From the IMG/VR virus record IMGVR_UViG_3300032007_000057, positions 1-64,000 of that record: a stretch of 64,000 bases of DNA; one strand, given 5' to 3'. The first letter of the stretch is position 1. Every line of letters begins with the position of its first letter. Under the pieces are notes generated by a model. The model did no database searches. It had not been told where the DNA came from and worked only from the letters and a program-made list of their open reading frames with translations. Source of the DNA: a virus. Lineage: Duplodnaviria > Heunggongvirae > Uroviricota > Caudoviricetes. Below, one piece after another: positions 4,156 to 39,664 of this stretch. The position numbers were made by a program, and so were the translations under genes.

Positions 4156-4692
4156 TCATTGCTTATCAATTACACTAATTGTGCATCCAGTATAAACTGT
4201 TTTATATGTTGGCAACACTTCTGGAAAGCTGCTTCCCTTTTTGAATATTTGGATAAATGTATTTGGGGCTGTCCCACTAAAAATAACTATCATCGAAGGA
4301 AATGGGGCTGAGTTTTTGCTATTACCAAACTTAAGCCTACCCTTAATAAAAATGATATCTCCCTTTACACAGTACTTATGAAACCATTTAGTGTCAGTTC
4401 TAGCTGGGAGAAGAAGTACTCCTACATTATCATCATGCTTATATGCTTCATTATAAGCTTTTTCTACCCATTTACCAATATCCCTTCCATAAGGAGGGTT
4501 CATCCAAAAAACCCCATCCCAATCTTGTTTAAGTCCATCCATTTCTTTTGTAAAATACTTTTCACATTTATGATTAGTTTCATCGGCACATACATCCAAA
4601 GTAAAATGATAAATACTGTTAAAATAATCAAACAAATCCTGTGGAGTTGCCCATTCATCTGTTTTACTGCTAAACATAACATCTGTATTCAT
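4156..4692 (-). CDS. dam: DNA N6-adenine methyltransferase (phage Dam family, PF05869-like)
   Basis: W.TPQDLF...LDVCA...KYFT...NPPYG (NPPY catalytic motif) in the typical small phage Dam layout. Strong SD AGGGAGG before the ATG. Confidence 0.8.
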   Translation of the reverse strand: MNTDVMFSSKTDEWATPQDLFDYFNSIYHFTLDVCADETNHKCEKYFTKEMDGLKQDWDGVFWMNPPYGRDIGKWVEKAYNEAYKHDDNVGVLLLPARTDTKWFHKYCVKGDIIFIKGRLKFGNSKNSAPFPSMIVIFSGTAPNTFIQIFKKGSSFPEVLPTYKTVYTGCTISVIDKQ

Positions 4693-4723
4693 TAATGAAT
4701 ACCTCCCTAATCTTTATAAGAAG

Positions 4724-4752
4724 ATATTACCAGAAAGTAAAATAGTTGTCAA
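4724..4752 (-). promoter_or_regulatory. Sigma70-like promoter (TTGACA-17-TAATAT) for dam
   Basis: Read on the minus strand: cTTGACA, 17-nt spacer, TAATAT, then SD AGGGAGG and ATG at 4692. Confidence 0.6.
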
Positions 4753-4830
4753 GTAGAAATGTGATGAACTTTGCATATATATTTTATTACTGTGTCATTC
4801 TTATTATAAATCTTAAAGGAGCGTGTTATT

Positions 4831-5184
4831 ATGACAATTGTTAATCTCACCCCTCACGAAATCAACATCAAAACTAGTAACGGCATGATTAGTATTCCAC
4901 CATCTAATCTGCCTCCTGTAAGATTGGTGGAAAAAACTGAAACAAGAAAAACTATCGAAACATCTGAAGGAGAAATTACTGTTAGTGCCAAATACTTTGG
5001 GGAAGTAAAGAATCTTCCTTCTTCAGAAGAAGGCAAAGTGTTTGTTGTATCAGCAATCGCAGGAACTGCAATATGGGAGCTTCTTCCAGAAAGAAGAAAA
5101 GATGTATTCATTACTGGAGAAGCAATCAGAGATAGCGCTGGGAAGCACATTGGATGTAACGGCCTTTGCTGCTATCCTAAATAA
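4831..5184 (+). CDS. Hypothetical protein (117 aa), plus-strand insert in the minus block
   Basis: SD AAAGGAG 8 nt before the ATG. Followed directly by a perfect terminator hairpin. Confidence 0.55.
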   Translation: MTIVNLTPHEINIKTSNGMISIPPSNLPPVRLVEKTETRKTIETSEGEITVSAKYFGEVKNLPSSEEGKVFVVSAIAGTAIWELLPERRKDVFITGEAIRDSAGKHIGCNGLCCYPK

Positions 5185-5218
5185 AACTAGGGGACTATTG
5201 ATAGTCCCCTAGTTTTAT
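5185..5218. terminator. Rho-independent terminator (bidirectional)
   Basis: aactaGGGGACTAttgaTAGTCCCCtagtt perfect stem, flanked by an A-tract and a T-tract. Confidence 0.7.
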
Positions 5219-5224
5219 TAACAT

Positions 5225-5530
5225 ATTTTTATATGTATATTATATTAGCGCTGTTTCAGTTTTAGGGGCAGCGTATTACGGTAAACTCAAGCCGTAAAGT
5301 TGAGTAAGGTGAAAGTCTCTCTTACCTAAAGCAGAGAGTCTAGGTCCAACGTAACACGTAACTCAGGGACCGAAAGCACTAGCTGCAAGTGTGCCTACCA
5401 GCATGGGCAAAGCAGCGTTGGAAAGATATTCACAGCACCCTAAGGGCGACTTTCCAAACTATTTAATCTTAGGGGTCCAGACTGAAAGGAGGAAAGGGTG
5501 TAGTCTGGATTATTCACCAAGGAGGTGAAA
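5225..5530 (+). ncRNA. GC-rich structured non-coding segment (candidate ncRNA or cis-regulatory leader) upstream of a GC-rich small ORF
   Basis: About 300 nt without ORF. GC far above the local average. Several short stem-loops visible (ctcaa..ttgag, ggtcc..ggacc, tccagact..agtctgga). Ends in a strong SD GGAGGTG. Confidence 0.3.
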
Positions 5531-5532
5531 GA

Positions 5533-5754
5533 ATGAACGAAGTGAAGTTTATCGTCATCGCGGTCATCGACCGTGAAGACGAAAGCTTCTACTGGGACGT
5601 TCGCACATCCAACCCCGCCGAAGCGGAGCTGGAGGTGCGCGTCGTTCTCGCTCAGAAGCCCAGCAGAAAATTGCAGGGCCGATGGATCGAGGACGAAACC
5701 GGTCGCGTCCTTCTGTGGTTCAATCCCAAGAGCCACAGATGGGAGCGCTGGTAG
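5533..5754 (+). CDS. Hypothetical small protein (73 aa) encoded by an anomalously GC-rich ORF (about 57% GC)
   Basis: Strong SD (AAGGAGGTGAAAGA) before the ATG. Composition unlike the rest of the phage. Weak hairpin plus T-tract follows. Confidence 0.5.
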   Translation: MNEVKFIVIAVIDREDESFYWDVRTSNPAEAELEVRVVLAQKPSRKLQGRWIEDETGRVLLWFNPKSHRWERW

Positions 5755-5816
5755 CGTCTCCGTAGAGGCGAAAAGAGACCCTGACTGGAAGGGGTTTCTT
5801 TTTGCTTACTCTTGAA

Positions 5817-6260
5817 TTAGTTTTGAACAGTAATCTGTATTGATGGCAAATACTCATTACTCCATTCATCAGTAATCAAAACATTTCCACCATTATTTAG
5901 TTTTGCATACATATTCAATATAAATACAGACTTATCTTGGATAAATGTACAAGGTAAATTATCCCGATTATTCAATTGAGCTTTAATAAGATTTGCAATT
6001 TGACTTTTAATATCTTCATAAACATTGATGTGGCTTTCTTCAGAATAAACGTTTAAATGAGTATCGTCCAGCACATTTATCATAAGTCTGCAATACATAG
6101 TATTTAAATCGATACTAAACTCAGTACAGATTTTTTCTGCAATCCACGGAACCACATCATATAAATTATTTGATTCAACAACATATTCATCACTTTTCCA
6201 GCGGCTAATTTCAATACTTTTATACCCACAATACCTAGTAACTGTTGCAGTAATTTTCAT
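5817..6260 (-). CDS. Hypothetical protein (147 aa)
   Basis: ORF in minus block. Confidence 0.5.
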   Translation of the reverse strand: MKITATVTRYCGYKSIEISRWKSDEYVVESNNLYDVVPWIAEKICTEFSIDLNTMYCRLMINVLDDTHLNVYSEESHINVYEDIKSQIANLIKAQLNNRDNLPCTFIQDKSVFILNMYAKLNNGGNVLITDEWSNEYLPSIQITVQN

Positions 6261-6279: not shown

Positions 6280-7971
6280 TTAAATATCAGTATCTTCAAG
6301 TCTTTCTTCAAACTTACTAACATTTTCATACTTATCCACAGAGATATCTACATTATTAATAACTTTAGGGTTAACTACTTCGTTAGGATAGTTCAGCATT
6401 CTGTAAGTAGGATAGTCAATATATACTGGGAATTTAACATTATCCTGGCCCATTCTGTTTTTATCAATAATACAATAGACAGGTTCAATAGTATCTAAAG
6501 TGTTCTTAAACTGATCATGTTCATCATAGAAGTCTTTATCAATTTTTTCTTCAGAGAATTCTTCTTGAACACTCAGATCAGTTTCTTCTTTAGACTTAAA
6601 GTTAAAGATAGCGAAAAAGTCAACATTTTCTCTTTTTCTAATTGACCCAGCAATATTTCCACCATTCATATTAAATTCAGAACTATTACCTTTACCCTTA
6701 TTCTTATAAGTATCTCTGTTAAGCTGAGTAACCGTTACAATAGGAATATTAAGGCTAATAGATAGGGATTTAAGTTCATCTACAATATAGCCTAAATCCC
6801 TCCATTCTTGATCTGATTTAGAAGCATTTACAGCAGACATTTTATCTGCATAATCTACAAACAGAATATCTACTTTAGTACCAGTACTTCTTTCAATATC
6901 GGTAATAATGGTTTGGATATCATAGATATCAATACTTTTAGCAGGTCTATAAGTAATATTAATTCTAGTATTATCTGGATTAAAGACTTCTTTAATCTGA
7001 TAATCATACTCTTCTTTAGTAAGAACTTTATTATTAAAGTTGTTCTCAATTTCAACAATAGATTGACCTAAAGCACAACATACAAATCTATCACCAGTCT
7101 CTTTAGTACTATTTTCAAGAGATACATAAAGTACTGTATGCTTATTAGAATCCTCTTTATATTTTTCATCAAGAAACAACTTAGCTCTATAAGCAAAATT
7201 AACTAGTACTAGAGATTTTCCTCCACCTGAAATTCCACCAAACATATAAATTCTTTGATTCTGGAATCCACCCTGAAGGATCTTATCAAACATCTTATAA
7301 CCAGTACTAATCTTAGTTACTTCATTGTTATTAGTAATAAGGTCTGTAATAGTTACTGTAGACAAATCTAATGAATTAGCGGCATCATAAGTGTAAGACT
7401 GAACATCAAGTAAAGCATTTCCTAAAATAGTATGGAGTTTAGTAACAAGTTCATTCCAAGAATTACATTCAAGATATCCATTATTAATAAATTTCTTCAA
7501 TAGCTCAATTTGCCCCAAAGCATTGAACATACATTTCTTATTAGAAAAACTTGTTTGAATTTCATTAACTACATCAAGAATAAGTTCTTCTTGTTTAGCA
7601 ATAGATAACGCTTTATTTTTATCTTCAATAGATAGTTCAACATCATTATCAATAAAAGCCTTATACTTCTCTAAAGCAATATCTCCATCAATTACTTTAT
7701 TATTTAGTGTAAATGATTTAGAGATGTAGGTAAGCATCTTCTGTTGAAGTTTATCCAAAGAAATAAATTCAACATATTGCTGAGATTGCTTATTTTTTAC
7801 CTTATCAATAAAGGTCTTAAATTCTTTACACAGATATGATGCAGATTTAATTACTAGAGGATCATTCTTTTTACCAAAAACTAATCTGGAATATACCGAA
7901 AGAAACTCTTCACCCATAAATTCCTTATCTTTATCCAAAATCTCCCTAAGTTGTACTAACATACTATCCAT
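6280..7971 (-). CDS. DnaB-like replicative DNA helicase (RecA-fold ATPase)
   Basis: Walker A GGISGGGKSLVL, Walker B ILFVDYADKM, and VTQLNRD resembling the DnaB H4 motif. Sits in the replication module. Confidence 0.6.
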   Translation of the reverse strand: MDSMLVQLREILDKDKEFMGEEFLSVYSRLVFGKKNDPLVIKSASYLCKEFKTFIDKVKNKQSQQYVEFISLDKLQQKMLTYISKSFTLNNKVIDGDIALEKYKAFIDNDVELSIEDKNKALSIAKQEELILDVVNEIQTSFSNKKCMFNALGQIELLKKFINNGYLECNSWNELVTKLHTILGNALLDVQSYTYDAANSLDLSTVTITDLITNNNEVTKISTGYKMFDKILQGGFQNQRIYMFGGISGGGKSLVLVNFAYRAKLFLDEKYKEDSNKHTVLYVSLENSTKETGDRFVCCALGQSIVEIENNFNNKVLTKEEYDYQIKEVFNPDNTRINITYRPAKSIDIYDIQTIITDIERSTGTKVDILFVDYADKMSAVNASKSDQEWRDLGYIVDELKSLSISLNIPIVTVTQLNRDTYKNKGKGNSSEFNMNGGNIAGSIRKRENVDFFAIFNFKSKEETDLSVQEEFSEEKIDKDFYDEHDQFKNTLDTIEPVYCIIDKNRMGQDNVKFPVYIDYPTYRMLNYPNEVVNPKVINNVDISVDKYENVSKFEERLEDTDI

Positions 7972-8056: not shown

Positions 8057-8494
8057 TTAAAGGTCAACATCCTTAATCACATCACCAACAGGTGCTTCCA
8101 GCTTATCCTCAGAAGTATATGATGTGCTAGGATTATCACGCTTAGGGGAATCCAGGAATTTGAAATCATCTGCCATAACCACTGTAATAGTGTTCTTCTT
8201 TTCAGGGTTATTTTCATCTTCCCACATTCGAGTTTCAATATGGCCAATAATCATAACATTTCTACCCTTTTTAAGGTATTTAGCCATTCTTTCAGCATTC
8301 TTGCCCCAGCACTGAACAAGAGGTGCATCAGTAGCTTCCTTACGTTCAAGCTCTCCACTTTCACCCTTAGTGTAATAGCTTCTATTCACAAAGAGCCTAA
8401 AAGAGGTGAAATAACGACCTGATTCATAAACCTTATAAAAAGGATCTGCACCAAGATTTCCACAAAGAATAACCTGATTAAACTGAGCTGCCAT
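8057..8494 (-). CDS. ssb: Single-stranded DNA-binding protein (OB-fold SSB)
   Basis: N.V.L.GNLG.DP......G......F.L.VNR...... W..... WGK.AE....YL.KG..V...G......WED pattern typical of bacterial and phage SSB. Confidence 0.8.
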   Translation of the reverse strand: MAAQFNQVILCGNLGADPFYKVYESGRYFTSFRLFVNRSYYTKGESGELERKEATDAPLVQCWGKNAERMAKYLKKGRNVMIIGHIETRMWEDENNPEKKNTITVVMADDFKFLDSPKRDNPSTSYTSEDKLEAPVGDVIKDVDL

Positions 8495-28567: not shown

Positions 28568-28645
28568 TGGTCGGGTATGGAGGATTTGAACCTCCGACCC
28601 TCTGCTCCCAAAGCAGATACGCTAACCAGACTGCGCTAATACCCG
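28568..28645 (-). tRNA. tRNA-Pro (anticodon UGG), CCA encoded
   Basis: Minus-strand cloverleaf CGGGTAT...TCTGC-TTTGGGA-GCAGA...GGTTCAAATCC...ATACCCG-A-CCA. Confidence 0.75.
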
Positions 28646-28650
28646 TTTAG

Positions 28651-29187
28651 TTACTCTTTAAAATACAAATCCCCAGTTTTATCTCCATCAATCTTATGCA
28701 GAAATACCCAATCTAAAAACTCACAAGCAGTAGATCTTTCTTCTTCAGAACAATCACTACCATTAATATACTCATCAAACCATTTATAAAACAGTTTCTT
28801 TCTATTGAAAGTTGCATTAATACAACTACTAAGCATATCCAAGTCAATATCTTTAAGATCTGTTTTACCGGCGTTTTTCATTACAGCTTCAATAGTTTCC
28901 CTGATAGCCTTAACATTTTCTGGCTGATAATAACGTTCGGCATTATTAGTCACATTTTCACATTTATTTATAGTCATATTCATATTTGTTATCCCACTTT
29001 CTTTATATTGGTAATAATGATTGGGATACTTAAAGACCAAAACTCTAGCTTTATAGGGAGAGGTTTGATCTCTATCCCAATAAACTAGTTCCATTTCTAA
29101 AAGCTTTCTAGCTTCAAATGGAGTAATCTTGACACTATCTTTTTTAAACTCTGAATCAAATAACTTAATTGTTTTCTCCATACTCAT
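28651..29187 (-). CDS. Hypothetical protein (178 aa)
   Basis: ORF. Confidence 0.45.
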   Translation of the reverse strand: MSMEKTIKLFDSEFKKDSVKITPFEARKLLEMELVYWDRDQTSPYKARVLVFKYPNHYYQYKESGITNMNMTINKCENVTNNAERYYQPENVKAIRETIEAVMKNAGKTDLKDIDLDMLSSCINATFNRKKLFYKWFDEYINGSDCSEEERSTACEFLDWVFLHKIDGDKTGDLYFKE

Positions 29188-29261
29188 TATGGGTAGTCTC
29201 CTTTATATAAGGGTGATTGTCTCTGCTTTTTTAATCAAGAAAAAACAGGTCAAAAAGAAAA

Positions 29262-29295
29262 GGTTTGAGGGGAATTTCACCCCTCTGAGAGGTAT
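29262..29295 (-). terminator. Rho-independent terminator
   Basis: GAGGGGaatttcaCCCCTC stem. On the minus strand it is followed by TTTTCTTTTT. Confidence 0.5.
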
Positions 29296-29488
29296 TAAAT
29301 TTTAAACTAAAAAGCCATAGGAATATACGCAGCTTTATAAGTCTGTTGCTTAGTTGATCAGTATCTAAGCTATCTGGAAGATGCGAAGACCTATGGTTAA
29401 TTCTTTAAAAGGCTATAGGAATATCAGTACTCAAATGATCAGTTTAAGTAGTCTATCTGATAGACCTATAGTCAATGCTTATCTATTA

Positions 29489-30097
29489 TTAGGGCCACTC
29501 ACCAAGAGGCTGTCCAAGAAGACCCTGCTGAGGAACCCCTTCAAGAATCTCCTTGAATTCAATCTTATCGTAATTGGAATACACACTGATAAGAACAACC
29601 CTGTTAGGATTACCCTTAGTCATAGCCTCAGGAGAAAGCACCATCTCTGTTTCACCAGCAAAGACGTACTTCACACCATTGACAACCTGTGTACCAATAA
29701 GTGCAAAAACTGAAACATTACTACCAACAAATCCAGCAAGATTATCCTCAAGAACCTTCATGGCCTCTTCAGGAATATCAGTAGTAGGATTAATCTGAAC
29801 CCCACCCATCTTACCAGAGTCAGACAGGACATTGGTAATCTCCACAATACTGAACTTATCATCCTTCTCATTAAGAACAATAAGAACCACATTATGAACA
29901 TCATTTCCAGTAATCATGGTCTGTGTAGCAAGAATAGCATGATTAACTCCAGAAACAACCTTACTACCAAGGTATGCAATCACATTATACTCAGCACCAA
30001 CCATATTACCAAAAATCTCTGTAAATGCGGAAGCAACCTTCTGAGGAAGCTTACCGGGAACAACATGAATCTCATAACTACCCAACATAAATATCAT
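29489..30097 (-). CDS. Hypothetical protein with internal tandem domain duplication (202 aa), moderately GC-rich
   Basis: Two repeats of ..KVVSGVNHAIL...G..VHNVVLIVL / ..QVVNGVKYVFAG.......NPNRVVLISV. Confidence 0.5.
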   Translation of the reverse strand: MIFMLGSYEIHVVPGKLPQKVASAFTEIFGNMVGAEYNVIAYLGSKVVSGVNHAILATQTMITGNDVHNVVLIVLNEKDDKFSIVEITNVLSDSGKMGGVQINPTTDIPEEAMKVLEDNLAGFVGSNVSVFALIGTQVVNGVKYVFAGETEMVLSPEAMTKGNPNRVVLISVYSNYDKIEFKEILEGVPQQGLLGQPLGEWP

Positions 30098-30422
30098 ATC
30101 CTTTCTTATTTATTTTTATCAAAAATAAAAGCTTTTATCAACATTACAATTATAAAAATTATAACTACGTATTGTATATATGGCAATAACTTTATTGAAC
30201 TATCAAATACTCCTGATAACCAGGAAAAGAATACATCAAACATACAATGTATGCACTACCAAGTTATGTTTAGTAGTATCTACTTTCTGTGGATAAGGAT
30301 CTTCATTATTCTTAAATCTCTGATACTGAAGATCTTTATACTCCTTCTTCTTCACCATTGTTCTAGTACCTGTACTGTCTTCTGTAAAATACCATTCAGT
30401 CATGTTATACATCAATCCTTTC

Positions 30423-30593
30423 TTAAGGCATATCAACTTCGTCTACATAAAGAACAATTTCCTCATTACCATAGCTATCACCAGTTGCTGAAATACTTGA
30501 TTCATCATAAAGTTGCTGAACTGAATCAAAATAGCTCTCAGAAACCTCAACTCTATGCCCTTCATCAGTTTTAAGATAGTATTTAGCAGACAT
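30423..30593 (-). CDS. Hypothetical small acidic protein (56 aa)
   Basis: ATG at 30593 with an upstream SD-like AAAGGGTG. Not in the supplied ORF track because it is under 60 aa. Confidence 0.3.
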   Translation of the reverse strand: MSAKYYLKTDEGHRVEVSESYFDSVQQLYDESSISATGDSYGNEEIVLYVDEVDMP

Positions 30594-30617
30594 ATTAACT
30601 ACACCCTTTCTTTTCTT

Positions 30618-31454
30618 TTATGTTACTGTAAATGTTTTTGAAATATCGTATTGTTCGTTCTGCCACCACGCATCCATTCCTACTCGAAAGTCTATACGGA
30701 CTGTATGTTCACCAACATCACTTACAGAGGCAGGGTCTGGAGCTGTCCAACTTCCAGAAGCAGTTAAACTATTATAAGTCTGAGAATATACCCGATTTTC
30801 ATCATAGTATAAAGTTATAGAATTAAGTTGATATCTAGTTTGTTGAACTGTATACGGAACAAAATCCCATTCAACATATGCACTTTCACCAACCGATATA
30901 TTATTAACCCTTAACACCATACCCTTGTATCTGCCTTCACCTTCTCTATACGAAATATCAACGGTCCTTACGTTATCATTGTTGTCTTCTCTAACATAGG
31001 TGTTAAACAAATCTATTATACGATTATAACAGCTATCTGCCGGTCTACTTGATAAATAAATACTATAAAATGAATCTTCACCATAATCATAATAGGTTAA
31101 AGTTTCTCCGTCATAATTAAATGTTTGATCGATATATGGAAAATAAATAGAAAAAGAGCCTAAATGGGCTATGTCAGGATCAGAGCAATATGCTCTTAGT
31201 TCAAACCATCCCATATCGGGAGGAGTATTATAATAAGGATCGTCTCCATTGCCATATGTACCGTAAGCTGACGCAGCTGGTTTACCAATTAAACGATCAT
31301 TTATAACTAAAACAATTTTAAATTTTTCAGATTTATTTTTAATAACAAACCCAACACTAATAGTCGAATCATAAGTTTGTGCTTCCGCAAAGGTCATTCT
31401 GTATATCTTATACTCATCTTTCCCCCCATTCAACAAAAGAGGTTTTGTAAACAT
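30618..31454 (-). CDS. Hypothetical protein (278 aa), possibly structural
   Basis: ORF. Tyr/Asn/Asp-rich beta-like composition. Confidence 0.45.
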   Translation of the reverse strand: MFTKPLLLNGGKDEYKIYRMTFAEAQTYDSTISVGFVIKNKSEKFKIVLVINDRLIGKPAASAYGTYGNGDDPYYNTPPDMGWFELRAYCSDPDIAHLGSFSIYFPYIDQTFNYDGETLTYYDYGEDSFYSIYLSSRPADSCYNRIIDLFNTYVREDNNDNVRTVDISYREGEGRYKGMVLRVNNISVGESAYVEWDFVPYTVQQTRYQLNSITLYYDENRVYSQTYNSLTASGSWTAPDPASVSDVGEHTVRIDFRVGMDAWWQNEQYDISKTFTVT

Positions 31455-31523
31455 TGATAAACACTCCTTTTATAAGTTTTATATTTGTAAGAACTAGGTA
31501 AACTAGTTTAAAAGTCAAAGGTA

Positions 31524-31599
31524 TGGTGGACTCGCTGGGGTATGATCCCAGAACCTGGCGATTATAAGTCGCCTACTCTACCAATTGAGCTACAAGTCC
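31524..31599 (-). tRNA. tRNA with anticodon read as UAU (Ile2-like). Anticodon assignment tentative.
   Basis: Minus strand: GGACTTG acceptor, GGCGA-CTTATAA-TCGCC anticodon arm, GGTTCTGGGATC T-arm, CGAGTCC-A-CCA. Confidence 0.65.
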
Positions 31600-31608
31600 A
31601 TGTAATAA

Positions 31609-31695
31609 TGGTGCCCAGGGGGGGACTCGAACCCCCACGCCAGAGATGGCAAGGGATTTTAAGTCCCTTGTGTCTACCTATTCCACCACCTGGGC
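31609..31695 (-). tRNA. tRNA-Leu (anticodon UAA), type II with long variable arm
   Basis: Minus strand: GCCCAGG acceptor, AGGGA-CTTAAAA-TCCCT, long extra arm, GGGGGTTCGAGTCCCCC, CCTGGGC-A-CCA. Confidence 0.75.
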
Positions 31696-31717
31696 ATTTA
31701 ACTATTTTTATATTTTA

Positions 31718-31794
31718 TGGAGCCCCTAGGAAAAGAGTTGAACTTCCATCACTTCTTTACAAGAGAAGTATAATAGCCGTTATACTATAGGGGC
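31718..31794 (-). tRNA. tRNA-Thr (anticodon UGU)
   Basis: Minus strand: GCCCCTA acceptor, CTTCT-CTTGTAA-AGAAG, GGAAGTTCAACTCTTTTCC, TAGGGGC-T-CCA. Confidence 0.7.
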
Positions 31795-31963
31795 AAATAA
31801 ATCTTATTTGTAGTCTACATCACTCAAAAGATTTAGGAAAGTTCTATACTATATTTTACTTCTGATTAACAGAGAGTGCTCCATCCTTAGCTATAGTATA
31901 GATAGATGGTTAAAAGGTGTAGATCTTTCAATAACTACTTACTGAAGACCTTTATCCAGGAAA

Positions 31964-31992
31964 ATTATATCAGCAGTATAGTTATTTGTCAA
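31964..31992 (-). promoter_or_regulatory. Perfect consensus sigma70 promoter (TTGACA-17-TATAAT) driving the tRNA cluster
   Basis: Minus strand: TTGACAaataactatactgctgaTATAAT, about 170 nt upstream of tRNA-Thr. Confidence 0.6.
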
Positions 31993-32544
31993 GTACAAAA
32001 CTGACTCACTTATTTATATGATCTACATGACCCTAAGAATAGGTCATTTGTGTAGTACTTTCGATGACTTTAATGGGCGTAATATATGTACTACAATCCT
32101 TTTCCCCTTTCAATCAAAGGATGACAGTTTCTTACCACTTGCAGTAACCTGACAACTCTCCGGAATCCTCCACTCAACACTGCTCTAGCTTCTACTAAAG
32201 GTGGCTCAACATTAAGTTTCATAGGATAACTACTACCTCAAGTGTAGTAGGTTCTAACAGTTTTTATAAAGTCTATCCCTTAGCCAAGGTAATTTTTATT
32301 GAGGGTTACATTCCCTAATAGACTTCTATCCTACTTATGCCAAATGAAGACATTACAATCTTCTAAGTAGATCAGCCTTTATTTACTGTTATTTCCCAAG
32401 CACTGATTTGGGTGAAAGGATTTTAATTGTAACTCATTTTAGGTTACAATTTAATTTTTAATGGCTCCTCCTGGTGGTTACGCTCCACCGTATACGGTTT
32501 AACAGACCGCCACTCTACTATTGAGTTAAGGAGGAATTAGAACT

Positions 32545-32639
32545 GGCTCTGGAGCCCCGATTCGAACGAGGATGAGAAAGGAGGTCCCTTTACTTACTGA
32601 TCCAAAGTCAGCTGTTTTTCCAATTAAACTACTCCAGAG
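32545..32639 (-). ncRNA. Atypical tRNA-like element. 8-bp acceptor stem, long variable arm, anticodon loop CTTTGGA (UUG).
   Basis: Minus strand: CTCTGGAG...GTTT-AATTGGAA-AAAC...GCTGA-CTTTGGA-TCAGT...AAAGG-GACCT-CCTTT...CCTCGTTCGAATCGGGG...CTCCAGAG-CC. Canonical T-loop GTTCGAATC. Non-standard combination of features. Confidence 0.3.
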
Positions 32640-32782
32640 TTAAATTATCAAGGGTTCACTTAAGACTCGCACTTAAGATCTTCAGCTTTCACATTTTCCT
32701 AATTATGCTCTAGAAGCATACATAGAAAACACTACTCAGTGAGATTTTGCTATTTAAACTATGAACCATGTCCAACAAAGAT

Positions 32783-32811
32783 ATTAAAGCATACTGACAA
32801 GAATTTGTCAA
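32783..32811 (-). promoter_or_regulatory. Sigma70-like promoter (TTGACA-17-TTTAAT) inside the ORF-free region, pointing at the tRNA-like element
   Basis: Minus-strand TTGACA, 17 nt, TTTAAT. Confidence 0.45.
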
Positions 32812-33503
32812 GAGGTGATTTTAAAAATTTTATGGCAGGTCCACTACCGCTTGCAGATAGTTCTGAAGTTTTGGAGACTCCTGTTTTACTACATAAACTA
32901 TGGACCCATCAATATTTGTTCAAAAAATTTTAGGTGTGGAGAGAAGTAATGAGGTACTCCTCCCCACTTCAAAGGAGAACGATCATGAGCGGAAAAATAT
33001 ATAGATACTTGATAGCTGTGAGGTATGTTCAGACTCAGACTCTGTTTAAATAGTACAGACCTTTATTCACAGATTTACATAATAATTACCAGCTACTTAC
33101 TATTAGCGAACGAGTTTACGTTATATTAAAGCTAATGTGATTTCACTAAGTAAATCTTAAGTGAGGTTCGACCAAGCCTCTTCATAGGGTCTAACTACTA
33201 AATCAACAATACTAACTACTCCCTACTCAGTAAAGTCTTACTCAATCCAAGATAAAATAGTCATCAATCAAAGACTATTATTTGAAATTAGATGTAAGGC
33301 TTTCTAGTCTCAGGAAAATTGAGAGAAAAGCATTGTTATTATATCGTCACATTTCAGGTGTGAAAATATAATTAGATAACTTTGCGGTCATCTAAATATT
33401 AGGAGAGTATCTTTCTTATTTTTACATGAATAAGATACTCAGAAAATCATGAAACAGAGTATTTAGAACTTTCACCAAGTATCAAATCTTTAAGTACTAA
33501 AAC

Positions 33504-34172
33504 TTAGTACTCAATTTCAATAGTGGTAGTTGCGTTAGAAACCTGAAGTGCTGAATCAACATTGAGTTCAAACTGATCAATCTCAATACTAAGAGCGTTA
33601 ATCTTCTTATTAATATCAATAGGATCAATAAGAACTGGCTGATTCTCCATATTGTACTTTTTCTTAAAGGCCATGATAGCATCTGTATTGATATTGGTTT
33701 TATCCTTATTACCATACAGGGTCTCAATGGTTTTTTCAAGTCTCTGTTCAGCTTTTTTAGTATCCTCTTCAAGCTGACTCTGTGCAAACTGAAGCTGAGT
33801 CTGAAGAGTATTAAGAAGCATTTTCTTAGTCTTAAGCCCATACTTCATCTGATAAATTGCTTCAGCAACAGTCATTTCCTTACCACCAACATTAATGATG
33901 GTTTCAGCATTAGACTTACTGATAGCAGCTTTAATAGCATCAACTCTTCTAATCAGATCAGTAACTGCCTGATAATTACTGCTTACCTTAGAACTAAAAT
34001 CCTGAATTGACATTCCATCAATTCTAAAATTATCATTAGTAGGATTATTATTTACAGCCACATACCTATTGCTAAAACTAGTGTACTGCATAATTTTCTT
34101 ATCTGCAAGTTTGACCTCACAAAGCGCCTTATGAATAGTCATCTTCTCAGTAGTCATTGCTTCAACCTCCAA
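33504..34172 (-). CDS. Hypothetical coiled-coil protein (222 aa)
   Basis: ORF. The 33497..33841 ORF is an alternative frame. Confidence 0.5.
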   Translation of the reverse strand: MEVEAMTTEKMTIHKALCEVKLADKKIMQYTSFSNRYVAVNNNPTNDNFRIDGMSIQDFSSKVSSNYQAVTDLIRRVDAIKAAISKSNAETIINVGGKEMTVAEAIYQMKYGLKTKKMLLNTLQTQLQFAQSQLEEDTKKAEQRLEKTIETLYGNKDKTNINTDAIMAFKKKYNMENQPVLIDPIDINKKINALSIEIDQFELNVDSALQVSNATTTIEIEY

Positions 34173-34182
34173 ATAATAGTTT

Positions 34183-34320
34183 TTACTTAACTCTCTTAAA
34201 ATAAACTACAACACCAGCAATAATAACAAGCAAAGCTACAAGAACTGCACTGGAAGTAATAGGATTAGCAGCTACAGTATTCTTAGCAGCGGTAAGCCAA
34301 GTAAACGCATAATTCAACAT
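34183..34320 (-). CDS. Small hydrophobic protein (45 aa)
   Basis: ATG at 34320 preceded by SD GAGGAGG. One clear TM helix (AVLVALLVIIAGVVVYF). Confidence 0.4.
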   Translation of the reverse strand: MLNYAFTWLTAAKNTVAANPITSSAVLVALLVIIAGVVVYFKRVK

Positions 34321-34392
34321 GTTTAAATTCCTCCTCATAATAAATACTAAGTCTATAAACTCTTACTAATACTACTTTAGTAAGTTTAGGAC

Positions 34393-34478
34393 AGAGGGCA
34401 GGAGACTCGAACTCCCAATACCTTTTCAGGTATGCCTGTTTTCAAGACAGGTTCCTTAACCAATTTGGATAACCCTCT
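34393..34478 (-). tRNA. tRNA-Ser (anticodon UGA), type II
   Basis: Minus strand: AGAGGGT acceptor, CCTGT-CTTGAAA-ACAGG, long variable arm, GGAGTTCGAGTCTCC, GCCCTCT-G. Confidence 0.65.
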
Positions 34479-34574
34479 ATATTAGGGGGAGTAGAATGTA
34501 ACCAAGACCTCCCCATTTTAGGAGATTACATTTTTAAATATTATACTTCTCCCACCAGTCACATTCTAATAATG

Positions 34575-38585: not shown

Positions 38586-38713
38586 CTTGAGATGAAATTT
38601 GCATATATATTATATAAGAGTCCTTTGTCTTTTATTAAAGACAGGGTTATTAAAATAACCTACTATTGTAGGATGATTTTATAAATATTCTTTCATACAA
38701 GGGAGTAGATATA

Positions 38714-39061
38714 ATGGATATGACAAAACTTAAAAAATTTTTGAAAAAAATGTTCCTTGCTTCCGATAGCATTATTCTTGACGGTGAAGAGTTCAAGGGT
38801 CATGAGCTGCTTCAGATGATGCAGCAGTTGTTTAAAATCGAAGGGTACTACGAGTTTCAGAATGGTAATTTGGGCCTCGTTGTGCTTAACGATTTTGACC
38901 GGGGGCATGGCATGCCTGTTCGAGCTATGCTTCAGTGGGCGGAGGGAGGAGTACTTCTTCCTGAGGAGGGGGAAAAGTACCTGAAAGAGTGGGAAGCGGA
39001 GAGGATTCGGAGGGCTTCGGGTGATGAGCCAATCACCTTGAAGGATTTTTTGAATAAGTAG
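38714..39061 (+). CDS. Hypothetical protein (115 aa), GC-rich early gene
   Basis: ORF. GC clearly above the phage average. The minus ORFs 38693..39379 and 38932..39150 are shadows. Confidence 0.5.
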   Translation: MDMTKLKKFLKKMFLASDSIILDGEEFKGHELLQMMQQLFKIEGYYEFQNGNLGLVVLNDFDRGHGMPVRAMLQWAEGGVLLPEEGEKYLKEWEAERIRRASGDEPITLKDFLNK

Positions 39062-39073
39062 GAGGTAATATAC

Positions 39074-39400
39074 ATGATTAAAAGCGTGAAAGTGGTATTT
39101 GCAAATGGTATTCGTCGTTTTGAGAAGGTTCTCTCTTTTGAGGGAACCAACGAAGTGGCGATTGCTGGATTTCGGTTTACAGTTAGTCACAATTTCGAAA
39201 GTGGTAACACCGTTTTGAAGGTGTACAATCCGAATGGGTTGTATAAGGCCTTTCTCATTGAGTTCGATGGAAGGGAAAACACCGAACGTGATTTTTCCCT
39301 GTTGCTTGATGAGCTCAAGCTGAATGGTGTTGAGGTTGCTATCGACACTATTCAGCTTGATAGCGGTAAGCGGTGGCATTGGCTGGATGGCTGGAATTAA
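39074..39400 (+). CDS. Hypothetical protein (108 aa), GC-rich early gene
   Basis: SD GGAGG before the ATG. Confidence 0.5.
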   Translation: MIKSVKVVFANGIRRFEKVLSFEGTNEVAIAGFRFTVSHNFESGNTVLKVYNPNGLYKAFLIEFDGRENTERDFSLLLDELKLNGVEVAIDTIQLDSGKRWHWLDGWN

Positions 39401-39424
39401 ACAGTCCTAAAGGGAGGCATTGGT

Positions 39425-39664
39425 ATGAAGAAAATGGCAGTAGTGTATTACAAGAACGGTGAGCTGCGTCGGTTCACCGTTCTCGCGACTTCACCCCTTG
39501 AGGCTGCTCAGCGAGTTTCCTACCTGATGTTTGTGGGGAATCCGGATTGGGATCGTACTTGTAAAGTGCTTGACGGCTCTCAGGTGAAGATTTTTCAGGT
39601 ATGCGGTCCGTATCCTGAGAATGTGTTTGAGGGGCTCCCGTGGTACGAGCTTGAGGACGAGTAA
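39425..39664 (+). CDS. Hypothetical protein (79 aa), GC-rich early gene
   Basis: SD AGGGAGG before the ATG. Confidence 0.5.
   Translation: MKKMAVVYYKNGELRRFTVLATSPLEAAQRVSYLMFVGNPDWDRTCKVLDGSQVKIFQVCGPYPENVFEGLPWYELEDE

What the first reader, a model, noticed from the sequence alone, without database searches (positions are those of the whole stretch)
5220..5815. Compositionally foreign GC-rich cassette: a structured RNA of about 300 nt plus a 73-aa ORF on the opposite strand to its neighbours
Within an AT-rich minus-strand block sits a short plus-strand unit. A 117-aa gene (4831-5184) with a perfect bidirectional terminator is followed by a segment of about 300 nt at roughly 50% GC with multiple stem-loops and a strong SD. 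Then comes ORF 5533..5754, whose codon usage (about 57% GC) is alien to the phage. This pattern (structured RNA plus small protein, terminator-bounded, horizontally acquired) fits moron cassettes such as toxin-antitoxin (type III RNA antitoxin) modules, anti-defence genes or riboregulated host-takeover genes.
Basis: partly seen in the sequence, partly recalled or inferred. Interest (0 to 1): 0.55.

Follow-up and report, generated by a model that had tools for sequence, protein, structure and literature searches.

The report
Foreign gene cassette beside phage Crn4
A GC-rich, self-contained transcription unit (promoter-like motif, about 285 nt of folded leader RNA, a 73-codon gene, terminator) sits in a swap-prone slot of an AT-rich gut phage, next to a gene for an enzyme that destroys CRISPR alarm molecules. 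It is most likely an ordinary accessory ("moron") cassette with a regulatory leader, and a candidate counter-defence gene, not a new RNA machine.

Summary
Window 5228-5803 is a plus-strand unit at 47-57% GC in a 31% GC phage. It has a promoter-like motif, a 286-nt leader, ORF73 (GC3 0.76 against 0.20-0.30 in core genes) and a terminator.

- **ORF73 is a real gene.** Substitutions fall 9/0/17 by codon position, and a 33%-identical 73-aa homologue occupies the same slot in sister phages. It has no relatives outside this clade and no known family.
- **The upstream 117-aa gene is a Crn4b-type viral ring nuclease**, a probable anti-type-III-CRISPR gene.
- **The slot between Dam and the 147-aa gene is a cassette hot spot.** Close relatives carry three alternative contents.
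- **The leader matches no Rfam family** and has no tandem repeats, so a type III toxin-antitoxin module is rejected.
- **Evidence for RNA structure is real but thin:** z = -2.7, two hairpins kept through sequence replacement, and no substitution that breaks a proposed pair.
- **Two features stand out.** GAAAG occurs six times against 0.8 expected. The 9-mer AGGUGAAAG occurs twice, and the second copy is the ribosome-binding region, half-sequestered by an anti-SD.
- **The 3' 116 nt of the leader is absent from the sister cassette.**

Best reading: an accessory cassette with a cis-acting regulatory leader. The function of ORF73 is unknown; counter-defence is inferred only from its neighbourhood.

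The parts
4831..5184 (+). Neighbouring 117-aa gene: a Crn4b-type ring nuclease. It is context, not part of the ORF73 transcript.
   Evidence: phmmer against PDB gives Crn4b 9r7b at E 2.3e-8 and Crn4a 9sma at 2.3e-7, both full length. The NLTPHE (Thr-x-His) and AIRD (Arg) motifs are kept. PADLOC Unk_01 'sometimes fused to CARF' matches at E 1.6e-14. The top 7 Foldseek hits are all Crn4, but TM is about 0.37 on a model with pLDDT 61.
5180..5219 (.). Bidirectional terminator hairpin of the Crn4 gene. With the promoter-like motif that follows, it forms a composite terminator/promoter.
   Evidence: The 19-nt arms are 100% complementary. The scan flags a terminator of 18 pairs followed by a T run.
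5228..5245 (+). Promoter-like motif TTTATATGTATATTATAT, with a -10-like TATTAT at 5238-5243. The inferred transcription start is about 5249-5251.
   Evidence: The motif recurs at 4770 (before Crn4) and at 38598 (before another GC-rich cassette). It aligns to TTTGTATGTATATAATA before the type B cassette. It is an island of conservation (5218-5241, 96%) between replaced segments in L003-L005. The sigma-70-type scan scores TTAACA-17-TATATT at 10/12. The transcription start is inferred, not shown.
5248..5274 (+). HP1, a 5'-terminal hairpin of the leader (10 bp, 7-nt loop).
   Evidence: The 5242-5312 segment has z -3.08. At the same place, L003/L001 carry a 9-bp hairpin of unrelated sequence, with z -2.6 and -2.4.
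5285..5305 (+). HP2, ACUCAA/UUGAGU.
   Evidence: It becomes GCUUAA/UUAAGC in L003, with two pairs changed on both sides. It is intact in L019 although 4 nearby bases differ.
5307..5338 (+). The first copy of the 9-mer AGGUGAAAG (an SD mimic), inside a possible H-type pseudoknot. S1 is 5308-5312/5322-5326 and S2 is 5317-5321/5334-5338.
   Evidence: There is an exact 9-nt direct repeat with 5523-5531. The two substitutions in S1 are G-C/G-U exchanges that keep pairing. S1 was proposed after seeing the data.
5343..5371 (+). HP4, GGUCC/GGACC, with a 19-nt loop that holds ACGUAAC twice.
   Evidence: It appears in the predicted folds. The stem is invariant, and the two variable sites (5354, 5357) are in the loop.
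5382..5416 (+). HP5, a nested hairpin (GCUGC/GCAGC around UGCCUA/UGGGCA). It marks the end of the leader part shared with the sister (A2) cassette.
   Evidence: It appears in the predicted folds. Similarity to L019/L020 stops at 5416. The one variable site, 5403, is in the loop.
5417..5512 (+). The window-type-only 3' leader. It holds a strong hairpin at 5474-5511 with a purine-rich 16-nt loop (GAAAGGAGGAAAGGGU), and possible alternative helices (UUGGAAAG 5418-5425 / CUUUCCAA 5450-5457; CCCUAAGG 5438-5445 / CUUAGGGG 5468-5475).
   Evidence: In L019-L021, L024, L025 and L029 it is replaced by 38 nt. The hairpin is in every fold. The pseudoknot helices are only sequence complementarity; their probability in nested-fold ensembles is at most 0.02.
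5513..5529 (+). Anti-SD UUCACC (5513-5518) paired with the GGUGAA half of the SD region (5524-5529). AAGGA lies in the loop.
   Evidence: Pair probability is 0.72-0.99. The same anti-SD can pair with the upstream copy at 5308-5313 at a cost of +1.6 to +2.6 kcal/mol.
5533..5754 (+). ORF73, a 73-aa protein with pI 5.8 and five Trp. The family is known only from this phage clade.
   Evidence: Against the 89%-identical allele, differences by codon position are 9/0/17, with 15 synonymous and 8 non-synonymous codons. A 33%-identical 73-aa homologue sits in the same slot (BLASTP 3e-7). There are no Pfam, PHROG, NCBIfam, PADLOC or PDB matches.
5771..5803 (.). Terminator shared by the convergent ORF73 and 147-aa-gene transcripts: A run, GAGACCCU/GGGGUUUC stem, T run.
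   Evidence: The RNAfold result is. The 3' arm and T run are kept in all three slot types, while the 5' arm comes with each cassette.

Best explanation
Window 5228-5803 is an accessory ('moron'-type) transcription unit. It lies in a recombination hot spot of a large AT-rich phage from ruminant-gut metagenomes, between the Dam methylase operon and the DnaB/147-aa operon.

**How it is probably built and expressed**
- It is transcribed from a phage-type promoter motif that it shares with the adjacent Crn4b ring-nuclease gene and with another GC-rich cassette.
- It ends at a terminator that it shares with the convergent backbone operon.

**What the roughly 285-nt GC-rich segment is**
- It is the 5' leader of the ORF73 mRNA, not an independent RNA gene.
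- Its 5' end starts with a terminal hairpin of the kind that protects mRNAs from 5'-end-dependent decay.
- Its 3' end holds the ribosome-binding site in a 6-bp anti-SD:SD hairpin. The anti-SD can instead pair with an exact upstream copy of the SD-region 9-mer (AGGUGAAAG).
- Translation of ORF73 is therefore probably set by which of two nearly isoenergetic folds forms. The choice may be modulated by a factor that recognises the repeated GAAAG motif.

**What ORF73 is**
- It is a fast-evolving small protein of foreign codon usage.
- It is one of several interchangeable cargo genes at this slot and sits next to a probable anti-type-III-CRISPR enzyme, so it is a candidate counter-defence protein.

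**Shown:** composition, coding, slot polymorphism, Crn4 homology, the motifs and the fold energetics.
**Inferred:** promoter use, the switch, and any counter-defence role.
For: **Unit anatomy:**

**Foreign origin:** GC3 is 0.757 against 0.20-0.30 in core genes.

**Coding:** codon-position pattern 9/0/17 and a diverged homologue.

**Hot spot:** in relatives with about 95% identical flanks, the slot holds one of three contents.
- Crn4 + leader + ORF73: window, L001-L005, L008, L010.
- Crn4 + the same 5' leader (5200-5416, 94.5%) + 38 nt + a 33%-identical ORF: L019-L021, L024, L025, L029.
- An unrelated 130-nt leader + an 85-aa GC-rich ORF, with no Crn4: L011-L018, L028.

**Neighbour is Crn4b:**; the proposed anti-CRISPR role in phages is from PMC12830947.

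**Leader structure**
- z = -2.74.
- HP1 is kept in unrelated sequence.
- HP2 has two compensatory pairs, and 99.3% of cells are paired across 32 pairs in 5 haplotypes.

**Switch elements**
- Exact 9-mer repeat.
- Anti-SD:SD pair probability about 0.99, with the alternative helix only 1.6-2.6 kcal/mol worse.

**GAAAG enrichment:** 6 observed against 0.78 expected, with 0 of 3000 dinucleotide shuffles reaching 6. It is the densest spot in the window.
Against: - No transcript data exist, so the promoter and transcription start are consensus-level inferences.
- Only five leader haplotypes exist, and 28 of the 32 proposed pairs never vary, so most helices are untested.
- Divergence is mosaic. ORF73 differs by 0% from L003 and 12% from L001, the leader by 3-7% and the flanks by 4.7%. 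Leader conservation therefore says nothing about selection on RNA.
- The anti-SD and the 3' half of the leader are absent from the sister cassette. The proposed switch cannot be a general property of the family.
- A 9-mer repeat within about 290 nt has a chance expectation of roughly 0.16 (my estimate), and the 6-bp alternative helix is short.
- The counter-defence role rests on guilt by association only. ORF73 matches nothing, and its structure model is unreliable (pLDDT 55).
Confidence: 0.5

Rival explanations
1. The leader has no RNA-level function of its own. It is foreign, GC-richer DNA (an old UTR or a decayed upstream gene) that travelled with ORF73. GC-rich sequence in an AT-rich setting simply folds more stably, and recombination explains its conservation.
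For: - Every cargo ORF at this slot is GC-rich, so GC richness marks foreign origin rather than RNA structure.
- Mosaic divergence removes the conservation argument.
- The central sub-segments fold no better than shuffles (z -0.25 and -0.87).
- The 3' 116 nt are dispensable in the sister cassette.
- There is no Rfam hit.
Against: - HP1 and HP2 keep their pairing through wholesale sequence replacement.
- None of the six variable sites in 5306-5416 breaks a proposed pair (my rough estimate of chance is about 0.08).
- GAAAG is enriched eightfold, with 0 of 3000 shuffles matching.
- The SD-region 9-mer is duplicated and an anti-SD lies next to the SD.
- No reading frame in the leader is open throughout.
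Confidence: 0.2
2. The leader also acts in trans as a decoy or sponge RNA. Its six GAAAG motifs, some of them in predicted single-stranded linkers and loops, would titrate a host RNA-binding protein or nuclease. This would resemble CsrB/RsmZ-type sponges or RNA anti-CRISPRs. ORF73 would be a partner or a separate cargo. The whole would be an RNA-protein counter-defence module next to Crn4.
For: - GAAAG enrichment.
- Three of the six motifs have a mean unpaired probability of 0.73 or more.
- The anti-defence neighbourhood.
- There is precedent for RNA taking part in anti-type-III activity (AcrIIIA1 with host t(m)RNA fragments, PMC11662646). This is an analogy only.
Against: - Motif exposure is not significant (P = 0.055).
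- No binder is known; a literature search for GAAAG binders gave nothing.
- No terminator or processing signal would release the RNA from the mRNA.
- The sister cassette keeps only two of the six motifs.
- There are no repeat-like units resembling CRISPR repeats or ToxI.
Confidence: 0.1
3. The region 5308-5518 is a large ligand-sensing aptamer (a riboswitch). A closing helix formed by the SD mimic and the anti-SD would be stabilised by a ligand, freeing the SD and turning ORF73 on.
For: - Its architecture resembles a riboswitch: a long-range helix (5308-5313/5513-5518) encloses a multi-hairpin domain and competes with the SD-sequestering hairpin at a small energy cost.
Against: - It matches no riboswitch family.
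- It has no homologues outside one phage clade.
- The sister cassette keeps only the 5' half of the supposed aptamer and has no anti-SD.
- The closing helix has probability 0.01 or less in the ensemble.
- No covariation supports it.
Confidence: 0.07
4. It is a type III toxin-antitoxin module, with the RNA as antitoxin and ORF73 as toxin.
For:
Against: - No tandem direct repeats.
- ORF73 is 73 aa, acidic to neutral (pI 5.8), and has no ToxN/AbiQ/CptN/TenpN or other PADLOC match.
- No terminator lies between the RNA and the ORF.
- The sister cassette drops 116 nt of the RNA.
Confidence: 0.02
5. Part of the leader is translated. A 41-codon upstream ORF (ATG 5403 to TGA 5526-5528) ends 4 nt before the ORF73 start and couples translation into ORF73.
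For: - The frame is open, and its stop lies inside the SD region of ORF73.
- The ATG is kept in all haplotypes.
Against: - No SD precedes ATG 5403.
- In the sister cassette the same ATG opens only 6 codons.
- The first 28 codons are invariant, including third positions, while ORF73 accumulates third-position changes.
Confidence: 0.05

Closest known systems
Phage morons / accessory ORFs of hyperplastic regions, shuffled through composite terminator-promoter motifs (PeSLs of T4-like phages; PMC4122927, PMC2839356)
   Same: - A small ORF with its own promoter and terminator sits between conserved backbone genes.
- Its composition differs from the backbone.
- Near-identical phages carry alternative cargo genes at the same site.
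- A conserved terminator + promoter island (5180-5245) lies exactly between the swapped segments.
   Different: - The phage is not a T4-like phage as far as shown.
- The promoter motif is different.
- An unusually long leader (about 285 nt) is part of the conserved 'frame', and recombination breakpoints fall inside it (5286 and 5416).
- PeSL-mediated recombination itself was not tested.
Anti-CRISPR / anti-defence loci that contain viral ring nucleases (AcrIII-1/Crn2; phage Crn4b, PMC12830947)
   Same: - A phage-encoded Crn4b homologue with the catalytic Thr-x-His and Arg residues lies immediately upstream, under the same promoter motif.
- The neighbouring small ORFs are fast-evolving and orphan, as is typical of counter-defence genes.
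   Different: - No aca-type HTH regulator was found.
- ORF73 matches no known Acr or defence-related model.
- No activity has been tested.
- The type B slot variant has neither Crn4 nor ORF73.
Translational control by SD sequestration with competing anti-anti-SD elements (riboswitch expression platforms, RNA thermometers, standby-site leaders)
   Same: - A 6-bp anti-SD:SD hairpin.
- An upstream exact copy of the SD-region sequence that can capture the anti-SD at a cost of 1.6-2.6 kcal/mol.
- A purine-rich, SD-like exposed loop 30 nt upstream.
   Different: - No known aptamer or thermometer family matches.
- No ligand or covariation is known for the switch helices.
- The sister cassette lacks the switch.
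Type III toxin-antitoxin systems (ToxIN, CptIN, TenpIN)
   Same: - An RNA segment precedes a small protein gene in a phage or mobile context.
   Different: - No tandem 34-36-nt repeats.
- No terminator between the RNA and the ORF.
- The protein is less than half the size of ToxN-like toxins and unrelated to them.
AcrIIIA1 protein-RNA anti-CRISPR complex (PMC11662646)
   Same: - A small phage protein acts against a type III system and works together with RNA.
   Different: - AcrIIIA1 binds fragments of host tRNA and tmRNA, not an RNA encoded next to it.
- There is no sequence relation, and nothing links ORF73 to Csm2 binding.

Membership tests
Type III toxin-antitoxin (ToxIN-like) | Antitoxin made of tandem direct repeats (about 34-36 nt) upstream of the toxin gene | tested here: not met
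   TRF at minimum score 30 finds nothing in 4700-5900. The repeat finder reports only 9-20-nt two-copy matches.
Type III toxin-antitoxin (ToxIN-like) | Toxin is a ToxN/AbiQ/CptN/TenpN-type endoribonuclease of about 170 aa | tested here: not met
   ORF73 is 73 aa. It has no PADLOC, Pfam, PHROG, NCBIfam or PDB match.
Type III toxin-antitoxin (ToxIN-like) | Terminator between the repeats and the toxin gene, setting the RNA:protein ratio | tested here: not met
   No terminator-like site lies between 5247 and 5533. Hairpin 5474-5511 is followed by AUUCACC, not a U run.
Any Rfam 15 RNA family | Score at or above the family's gathering threshold | tested here: not met
   Only tRNAs pass in the window. 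The permissive scan of 5100-5900 gives only sub-threshold hits on the AT-rich terminator. The sister and type B leaders also give nothing.
Moron / accessory cassette of a phage hyperplastic region | Own promoter and terminator, inserted between backbone genes | tested here: met
   The promoter-like motif is shared with two other units. Terminators flank both sides. Promoter activity was not tested experimentally.
Moron / accessory cassette of a phage hyperplastic region | Composition unlike the backbone, and presence/absence or replacement among close relatives | tested here: met
   GC3 is 0.757 against 0.20-0.30. Three slot types occur in phages with about 95% identical flanks.
PeSL-type modular shuffling (T4-like phages) | Conserved composite terminator/promoter at the junctions of swapped segments | tested here: met
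   5218-5241 is 96% conserved, while 4783-5217 and 5242-5285 are replaced in L003-L005. The concept is from PMC4122927.
PeSL-type modular shuffling (T4-like phages) | Recombination actually mediated by the motif; T4-like lineage | not testable with these tools
   Other breakpoints (5286, 5416, about 5773) lie outside the motif. The lineage of the phage was not established.
Crn4 ring nuclease (the neighbouring gene 4831-5184) | Full-length sequence similarity to solved Crn4a/Crn4b | tested here: met
   9r7b at E 2.3e-8 (residues 2-112) and 9sma at E 2.3e-7 (residues 1-117). PADLOC Unk_01 at 1.6e-14.
Crn4 ring nuclease (the neighbouring gene 4831-5184) | Conserved Thr13, His15 and Arg112 (A. procaprae numbering), implicated in catalysis | tested here: met
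   T7-P-H9 in NLTPHE and R100 in EAIRD are invariant in the window protein, P0008 and P0009, and align to the PDB chains. The residue roles are from PMC12830947.
Crn4 ring nuclease (the neighbouring gene 4831-5184) | Crn4 fold | tested here: inconclusive
   The model has pLDDT 61. The top 7 Foldseek PDB hits are all Crn4 (E 5e-4 to 4e-3), but TM is 0.35-0.38.
Crn4 ring nuclease (the neighbouring gene 4831-5184) | Degrades cyclic oligoadenylates | not testable with these tools
   This needs a biochemical assay.
Riboswitch | Conserved aptamer with covariation across many lineages, coupled to an expression platform | tested here: not met
   An expression-platform-like anti-SD exists. However, no homologues occur outside one clade, and the sister cassette keeps only half of the domain.
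Anti-CRISPR locus | Adjacent aca-type HTH regulator, or a demonstrated inhibitor | tested here: not met
   No HTH or any other domain was found in ORF73, its homologue or the slot variants. Inhibition cannot be tested here.

The most novel reading that the evidence does not exclude
The cassette is a two-component RNA-protein counter-defence module linked to the viral ring nuclease. The leader displays multiple GAAAG motifs and acts beyond its own mRNA, as a decoy or sponge for a host defence RNA-binding protein or nuclease, or as a sensor that switches ORF73 on during a defence response. ORF73 founds a new anti-defence protein family.
Probability: 0.1. Interest if true: 0.75.

Novelty: new member of a known kind. 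Interest (0 to 1): 0.4.

Why it matters
If the reading is right, this slot is a natural 'test bench' of interchangeable counter-defence candidates in an uncultured large gut phage.

- **What the slot holds.** A Crn4b ring nuclease in two very different alleles, two ORF73 subfamilies and an unrelated 85-aa ORF. All sit behind one promoter type.
- **Candidates for anti-defence screens.** This gives three orphan protein families with a concrete reason to be tested against type III CRISPR and CBASS signalling. Few inhibitors of those systems are known.
- **A database blind spot.** Gene callers often annotate the antisense strand of such GC-rich cassettes in AT-rich phages. These small genes are therefore under-represented in protein databases.
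- **The leader.** It is a compact case for testing SD-mimic/anti-SD competition. The unexplained GAAAG enrichment is a specific, cheap lead for an RNA-binding factor.

On present evidence none of this changes how phage accessory genes are understood.

Tried and rejected
**Known RNA families**
- Rfam at gathering and at permissive thresholds on the window, the sister leader and the type B leader gave only tRNAs and sub-threshold noise.
- ARAGORN found no tmRNA.
- I checked the sequence by eye for a canonical 11-nt GAAA-tetraloop receptor and for group I P7/R-S elements. The UAUGG/CCUAAG segments cannot form the receptor helix, and the window has CAUGG, so I dropped this.

**More distant RNA homologues**
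- blastn against 50,697 phage records gave no match.
- Six exact or degenerate DNA patterns gave no match: IMG/VR, the JGI metagenome set and GTDB genomes.
- A covariation test beyond five haplotypes was therefore impossible.

**ORF73 relatives**
- The word-indexed search returned only its own cluster.
- Full HMMER against 1.84 billion representatives gave five extra hits at E 5e-5 to 6e-4. All are repeat proteins of unrelated families (fn3, G5, zinc-ribbon repeats), so I judged them spurious.
- tblastn-type scans found nothing.
- A profile of the family against PDB found nothing.
- hhalign against the type B ORF85 and the 79-aa ORF of the 38.7-kb cassette showed no relation.
- AlphaFold of ORF73 gave pLDDT 55 and is unusable.

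**Other ideas tested and dropped**
- Conservation as evidence of RNA-level selection: divergence is mosaic.
- A 12-nt perfect complement between the HP1 loop (5252-5263) and the Crn4 coding region (4933-4944): it is AT-rich and is broken in L019.
- Homology between type A and type B leaders: only the promoter motif aligns.
- GGUGAAA as the phage's usual ribosome-binding context: not so.
- Significant exposure of the GAAAG motifs: P = 0.055.
- A literature search for a GAAAG-binding factor found nothing.
Full report

Yes.
- **Composition.** The window averages 31.4% GC. Across 5300-5800, GC climbs to 0.47-0.60.
- **Gene layout.** Plus-strand genes at 4831-5184 (117 aa) and 5533-5754 (73 aa) lie between minus-strand genes. 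These are Dam at 4156-4692, a 147-aa gene at 5817-6260, DnaB-like at 6280-7971 and SSB at 8057-8494.
- **Terminators.** The 117-aa gene is followed by a perfect 19-nt inverted repeat with A and T runs. ORF73 is followed by a second terminator-like hairpin at 5771-5803.
- **Ribosome-binding site.** ORF73 has a strong site, AAGGAGGUG, 7 nt before the ATG.
- **Codon usage.** ORF73 has GC3 0.757, against 0.20-0.30 in the backbone genes.
- **Folding.** The leader folds better than dinucleotide shuffles: -89.6 against -76.3 +/- 4.85 kcal/mol, z -2.74, with 1 of 200 shuffles as good. The signal comes mainly from its two ends (z -3.08 and -2.52). The middle is ordinary (z -0.25 and -0.87).

**2. ORF73 is a gene, but an orphan**

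- **Coding evidence.** Against the 89%-identical allele on contig L001, the 26 nucleotide differences fall 9/0/17 on codon positions 1/2/3. Read on the antisense ORF (5440-5736), the same changes would put 17 at first positions, so the plus strand is the coding one (inference).
- **A diverged homologue.** A second 73-aa ORF occupies the same place in sister phages: 33% identity, BLASTP E 3e-7, with a shared EDES motif.
- **No relatives beyond that.**
  - The word-indexed search of 5.8 billion proteins found nothing else.
  - Full HMMER against 1.84 billion representatives gave five weak extra hits, all repeat proteins of unrelated families.
  - tblastn-type scans of phage records, IMG/VR and GTDB genomes found nothing.
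  - Pfam, PHROGs, NCBIfam, PADLOC and PDB found nothing.
- **Structure.** The model is unreliable (pLDDT 55).

**3. The neighbour changes the context**

- **Sequence match.** The 117-aa protein aligns over its full length with the solved ring nucleases Crn4b (9r7b, E 2.3e-8) and Crn4a (9sma, E 2.3e-7). It keeps the Thr-x-His (NLTPHE) and Arg (AIRD) residues.
- **Defence-library match.** It matches the PADLOC model 'unknown small protein, sometimes fused to CARF' at E 1.6e-14.
- **Fold search.** A modest structure model returns only Crn4 entries as its top seven PDB matches, although TM is about 0.37.
- **Known biology.** Crn4 degrades the cyclic oligoadenylate messengers of type III CRISPR systems. 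Its authors found Crn4b in a few phages and plasmids and proposed an anti-CRISPR role (PMC12830947).

The finding therefore sits in what looks like a counter-defence neighbourhood.

**4. Sister phages show a cassette hot spot**

All relatives are metagenome contigs, many of them from sample series whose names suggest ruminant or other gut studies. The longest carrying contig is 288 kb. Their flanks are about 95% identical to the window. Between Dam and the 147-aa gene they carry one of three contents.

- **Type A: Crn4b + leader + ORF73.**
  - Found in the window, L001-L005, L008 and L010.
  - In L001 and L003-L005, the segment 4783-5285 is replaced by a 58%-identical Crn4 allele with GC3 0.72-0.78, against 0.28 for the window allele.
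  - The first two leader hairpins are replaced too. An island at 5218-5241 remains conserved.
- **Type A2: the same Crn4b and the same leader up to 5416 (94.5%).**
  - The segment 5417-5772 is then replaced by 38 nt plus the diverged 73-aa ORF.
  - Found in L019-L021, L024, L025 and L029.
- **Type B: no Crn4, an unrelated 130-nt leader and an 85-aa GC-rich ORF.**
  - Found in L011-L018 and L028.

All three types share the promoter-like motif TTT(A/G)TATGTATAT(T/A)ATA and the 3' arm and T run of the terminator.

The same motif (TTTGCATATATATT...) precedes the Crn4 gene at 4770. It also precedes a second GC-rich three-gene cassette at 38598.

This is the pattern described for hyperplastic regions of T4-like phages. 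There, composite terminator/promoter motifs (PeSLs) flank swapped small ORFs (PMC4122927, PMC2839356).

Because divergence is mosaic, conservation of the leader cannot be used as evidence for selection on RNA. ORF73 differs by 0% from L003 and 12% from L001, the leader by 3-7%, and the flanks by 4.7%.

**5. What the 'structured RNA' is**

Nothing separates 5248-5532 from ORF73. No terminator-like site lies between them, so it is the 5' leader of the ORF73 mRNA. It matches no Rfam family, no tmRNA was found, and it has no tandem repeats.

*Structural evidence*
- **HP1 (5248-5274).** It starts at the inferred 5' end. In L003/L001 it is replaced by a 9-bp hairpin of unrelated sequence at the same place.
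- **HP2 (5285-5305).** It keeps pairing through two double changes: A-U to G-C and C-G to U-A.
- **Region 5306-5416.** The six variable sites are either unpaired or G-C/G-U exchanges. None breaks a proposed pair. My rough estimate of the chance of that is about 0.08, and one helix was proposed after I had seen the data.
- **Limit.** Twenty-eight of the 32 proposed pairs never vary, so HP3-HP5 remain predictions.

*Two features beyond generic folding*
- **GAAAG enrichment.**
  - The pentamer occurs six times in 286 nt against 0.78 expected.
  - None of 3000 dinucleotide shuffles reached six.
  - This is the densest spot for the motif in the window.
  - Several copies lie in predicted single-stranded stretches, but this is not significant (P 0.055).
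- **A duplicated 9-mer, AGGUGAAAG (5307-5315 and 5523-5531).**
  - The second copy is the 3' part of the ribosome-binding region.
  - UUCACC (5513-5518) pairs with GGUGAA (5524-5529) with probability about 0.99.
  - It can instead pair with the upstream copy at a cost of only 1.6-2.6 kcal/mol.
  - This is the layout of an SD / anti-SD / anti-anti-SD switch.
  - It cannot be general, because type A2 lacks the anti-SD and the whole 3' 116 nt.

**6. Most likely mechanism**

Confidence is about 0.5.
- It is an accessory cassette, transcribed from a phage promoter motif and terminated at a hairpin shared with the convergent backbone operon.
- The leader acts in cis. A 5'-terminal hairpin stabilises the mRNA (inference from the established role of 5' stem-loops against 5'-end-dependent decay). 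The 3' end sets ORF73 translation through competing pairings of the anti-SD. A factor that binds GAAAG may tune this, and ORF73 itself is one candidate (speculation).
- ORF73 is a candidate counter-defence protein, purely by association with Crn4b and by its hot-spot, orphan, fast-evolving character.

*Rivals*

| Reading | Confidence |
|---|---|
| Leader is functionless foreign DNA | 0.2 |
| Trans-acting decoy or sponge RNA | 0.1 |
| Large riboswitch | 0.07 |
| 41-codon upstream ORF with translational coupling | 0.05 |
| Type III toxin-antitoxin | 0.02 |

**7. Comparison with known systems**

- **What it works like.** A moron or hyperplastic-region cassette. It meets the defining features that can be checked in sequence.
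- **Type III toxin-antitoxin.** It is not one; three defining features were tested and not met.
- **Rfam families and riboswitches.** It belongs to no Rfam family and is not a documented riboswitch.
- **Anti-CRISPR locus.** The Crn4b neighbour meets the sequence and catalytic-residue tests for Crn4. No aca regulator or known Acr is present.
- **AcrIIIA1.** This is a type III anti-CRISPR protein that carries host t(m)RNA fragments (PMC11662646). It is only a loose analogy.

**8. Novelty and score**

- ORF73 and its sister form a new small protein family, and the leader is an unclassified RNA element.
- The kind of thing, a swappable accessory cassette in a phage plasticity zone, is well known. 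I therefore rate it a new member of a known kind.
- Interest is 0.4. The Crn4b linkage, the three interchangeable orphan cargos, the GAAAG enrichment and the SD-mimic arrangement are concrete, cheap leads. Nothing here is yet surprising to a phage biologist.
- The most novel reading not excluded is an RNA-protein counter-defence module. I give it about 0.1.

**9. What failed**

- Every attempt to find the RNA or the protein outside this clade came back empty. This covered phage records, IMG/VR, a JGI metagenome set, GTDB genomes and 1.84 billion protein representatives.
- Covariation analysis is therefore limited to five haplotypes, and the donor of the GC-rich DNA remains unknown.

Noticed in passing
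window 4831-5184 (+): The 117-aa gene upstream of the finding is a Crn4b-type viral ring nuclease, with the catalytic Thr-x-His and Arg kept. The clade holds two alleles only 58% identical. The window allele has native-like codons (GC3 0.28), while the L003/L001 allele has GC3 0.72-0.78.
   Followed up: yes
window 38598-39664 (+): A second GC-rich plus-strand cassette holds three small ORFs (115, 108 and 79 aa; GC3 0.47-0.58). It follows the same promoter-like motif (TTTGCATATATATTATAT at 38598) and a 5' hairpin. It has no family matches in Pfam, NCBIfam or PADLOC.
   Followed up: partly
window 32652-32745 (-), within the tRNA cluster 28568-34479: ARAGORN calls a tRNA with anticodon CTA (labelled tRNA-Pyl), which would read TAG. 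The Rfam tRNA model did not list it. It may indicate TAG suppression or recoding in this phage. ORF73 ends in TAG in the window but in TAA in L001.
   Followed up: no
L019 2892-3281, L014 2941-3408 (and the same in L015, L016, L020, L021, L029): Public gene calls in these GC-rich cassettes pick long antisense ORFs (129 and 155 aa) instead of the real 73- and 85-aa genes. Protein databases therefore under-represent these small genes.
   Followed up: partly
L011 2997-3254 (-) and the same slot in L012-L018, L028: The alternative cargo at the same slot is an 85-aa GC-rich ORF (GC3 0.61). Its leader of about 130 nt holds an 8-10-bp hairpin with a purine-rich loop (UGGUGAAACGCAGAAACGGAG) and a CCCCCC/GGGGGG hairpin before the SD. 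The leader is nearly invariant between L011 and L014, while the ORF differs at many sites.
   Followed up: partly
L006 706-785 and 1449-1528: A GC-rich phage-like contig carries a distant Crn4 homologue (P0008, 134 aa). An element of about 80 nt that looks structured occurs twice on it, once before and once after the Crn4-containing gene block.
   Followed up: no
window 5403-5528 (+): A 41-codon upstream ORF (ATG 5403) ends in a TGA inside the ORF73 ribosome-binding region, 4 nt before the ORF73 ATG. It has no SD of its own and is cut to 6 codons in the sister cassette.
   Followed up: partly
window 4933-4944 and 5252-5263: There is a 12-nt perfect complementarity between the Crn4 coding region and the first leader hairpin. 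It is AT-rich and is not kept in L019, so it is probably chance.
   Followed up: partly
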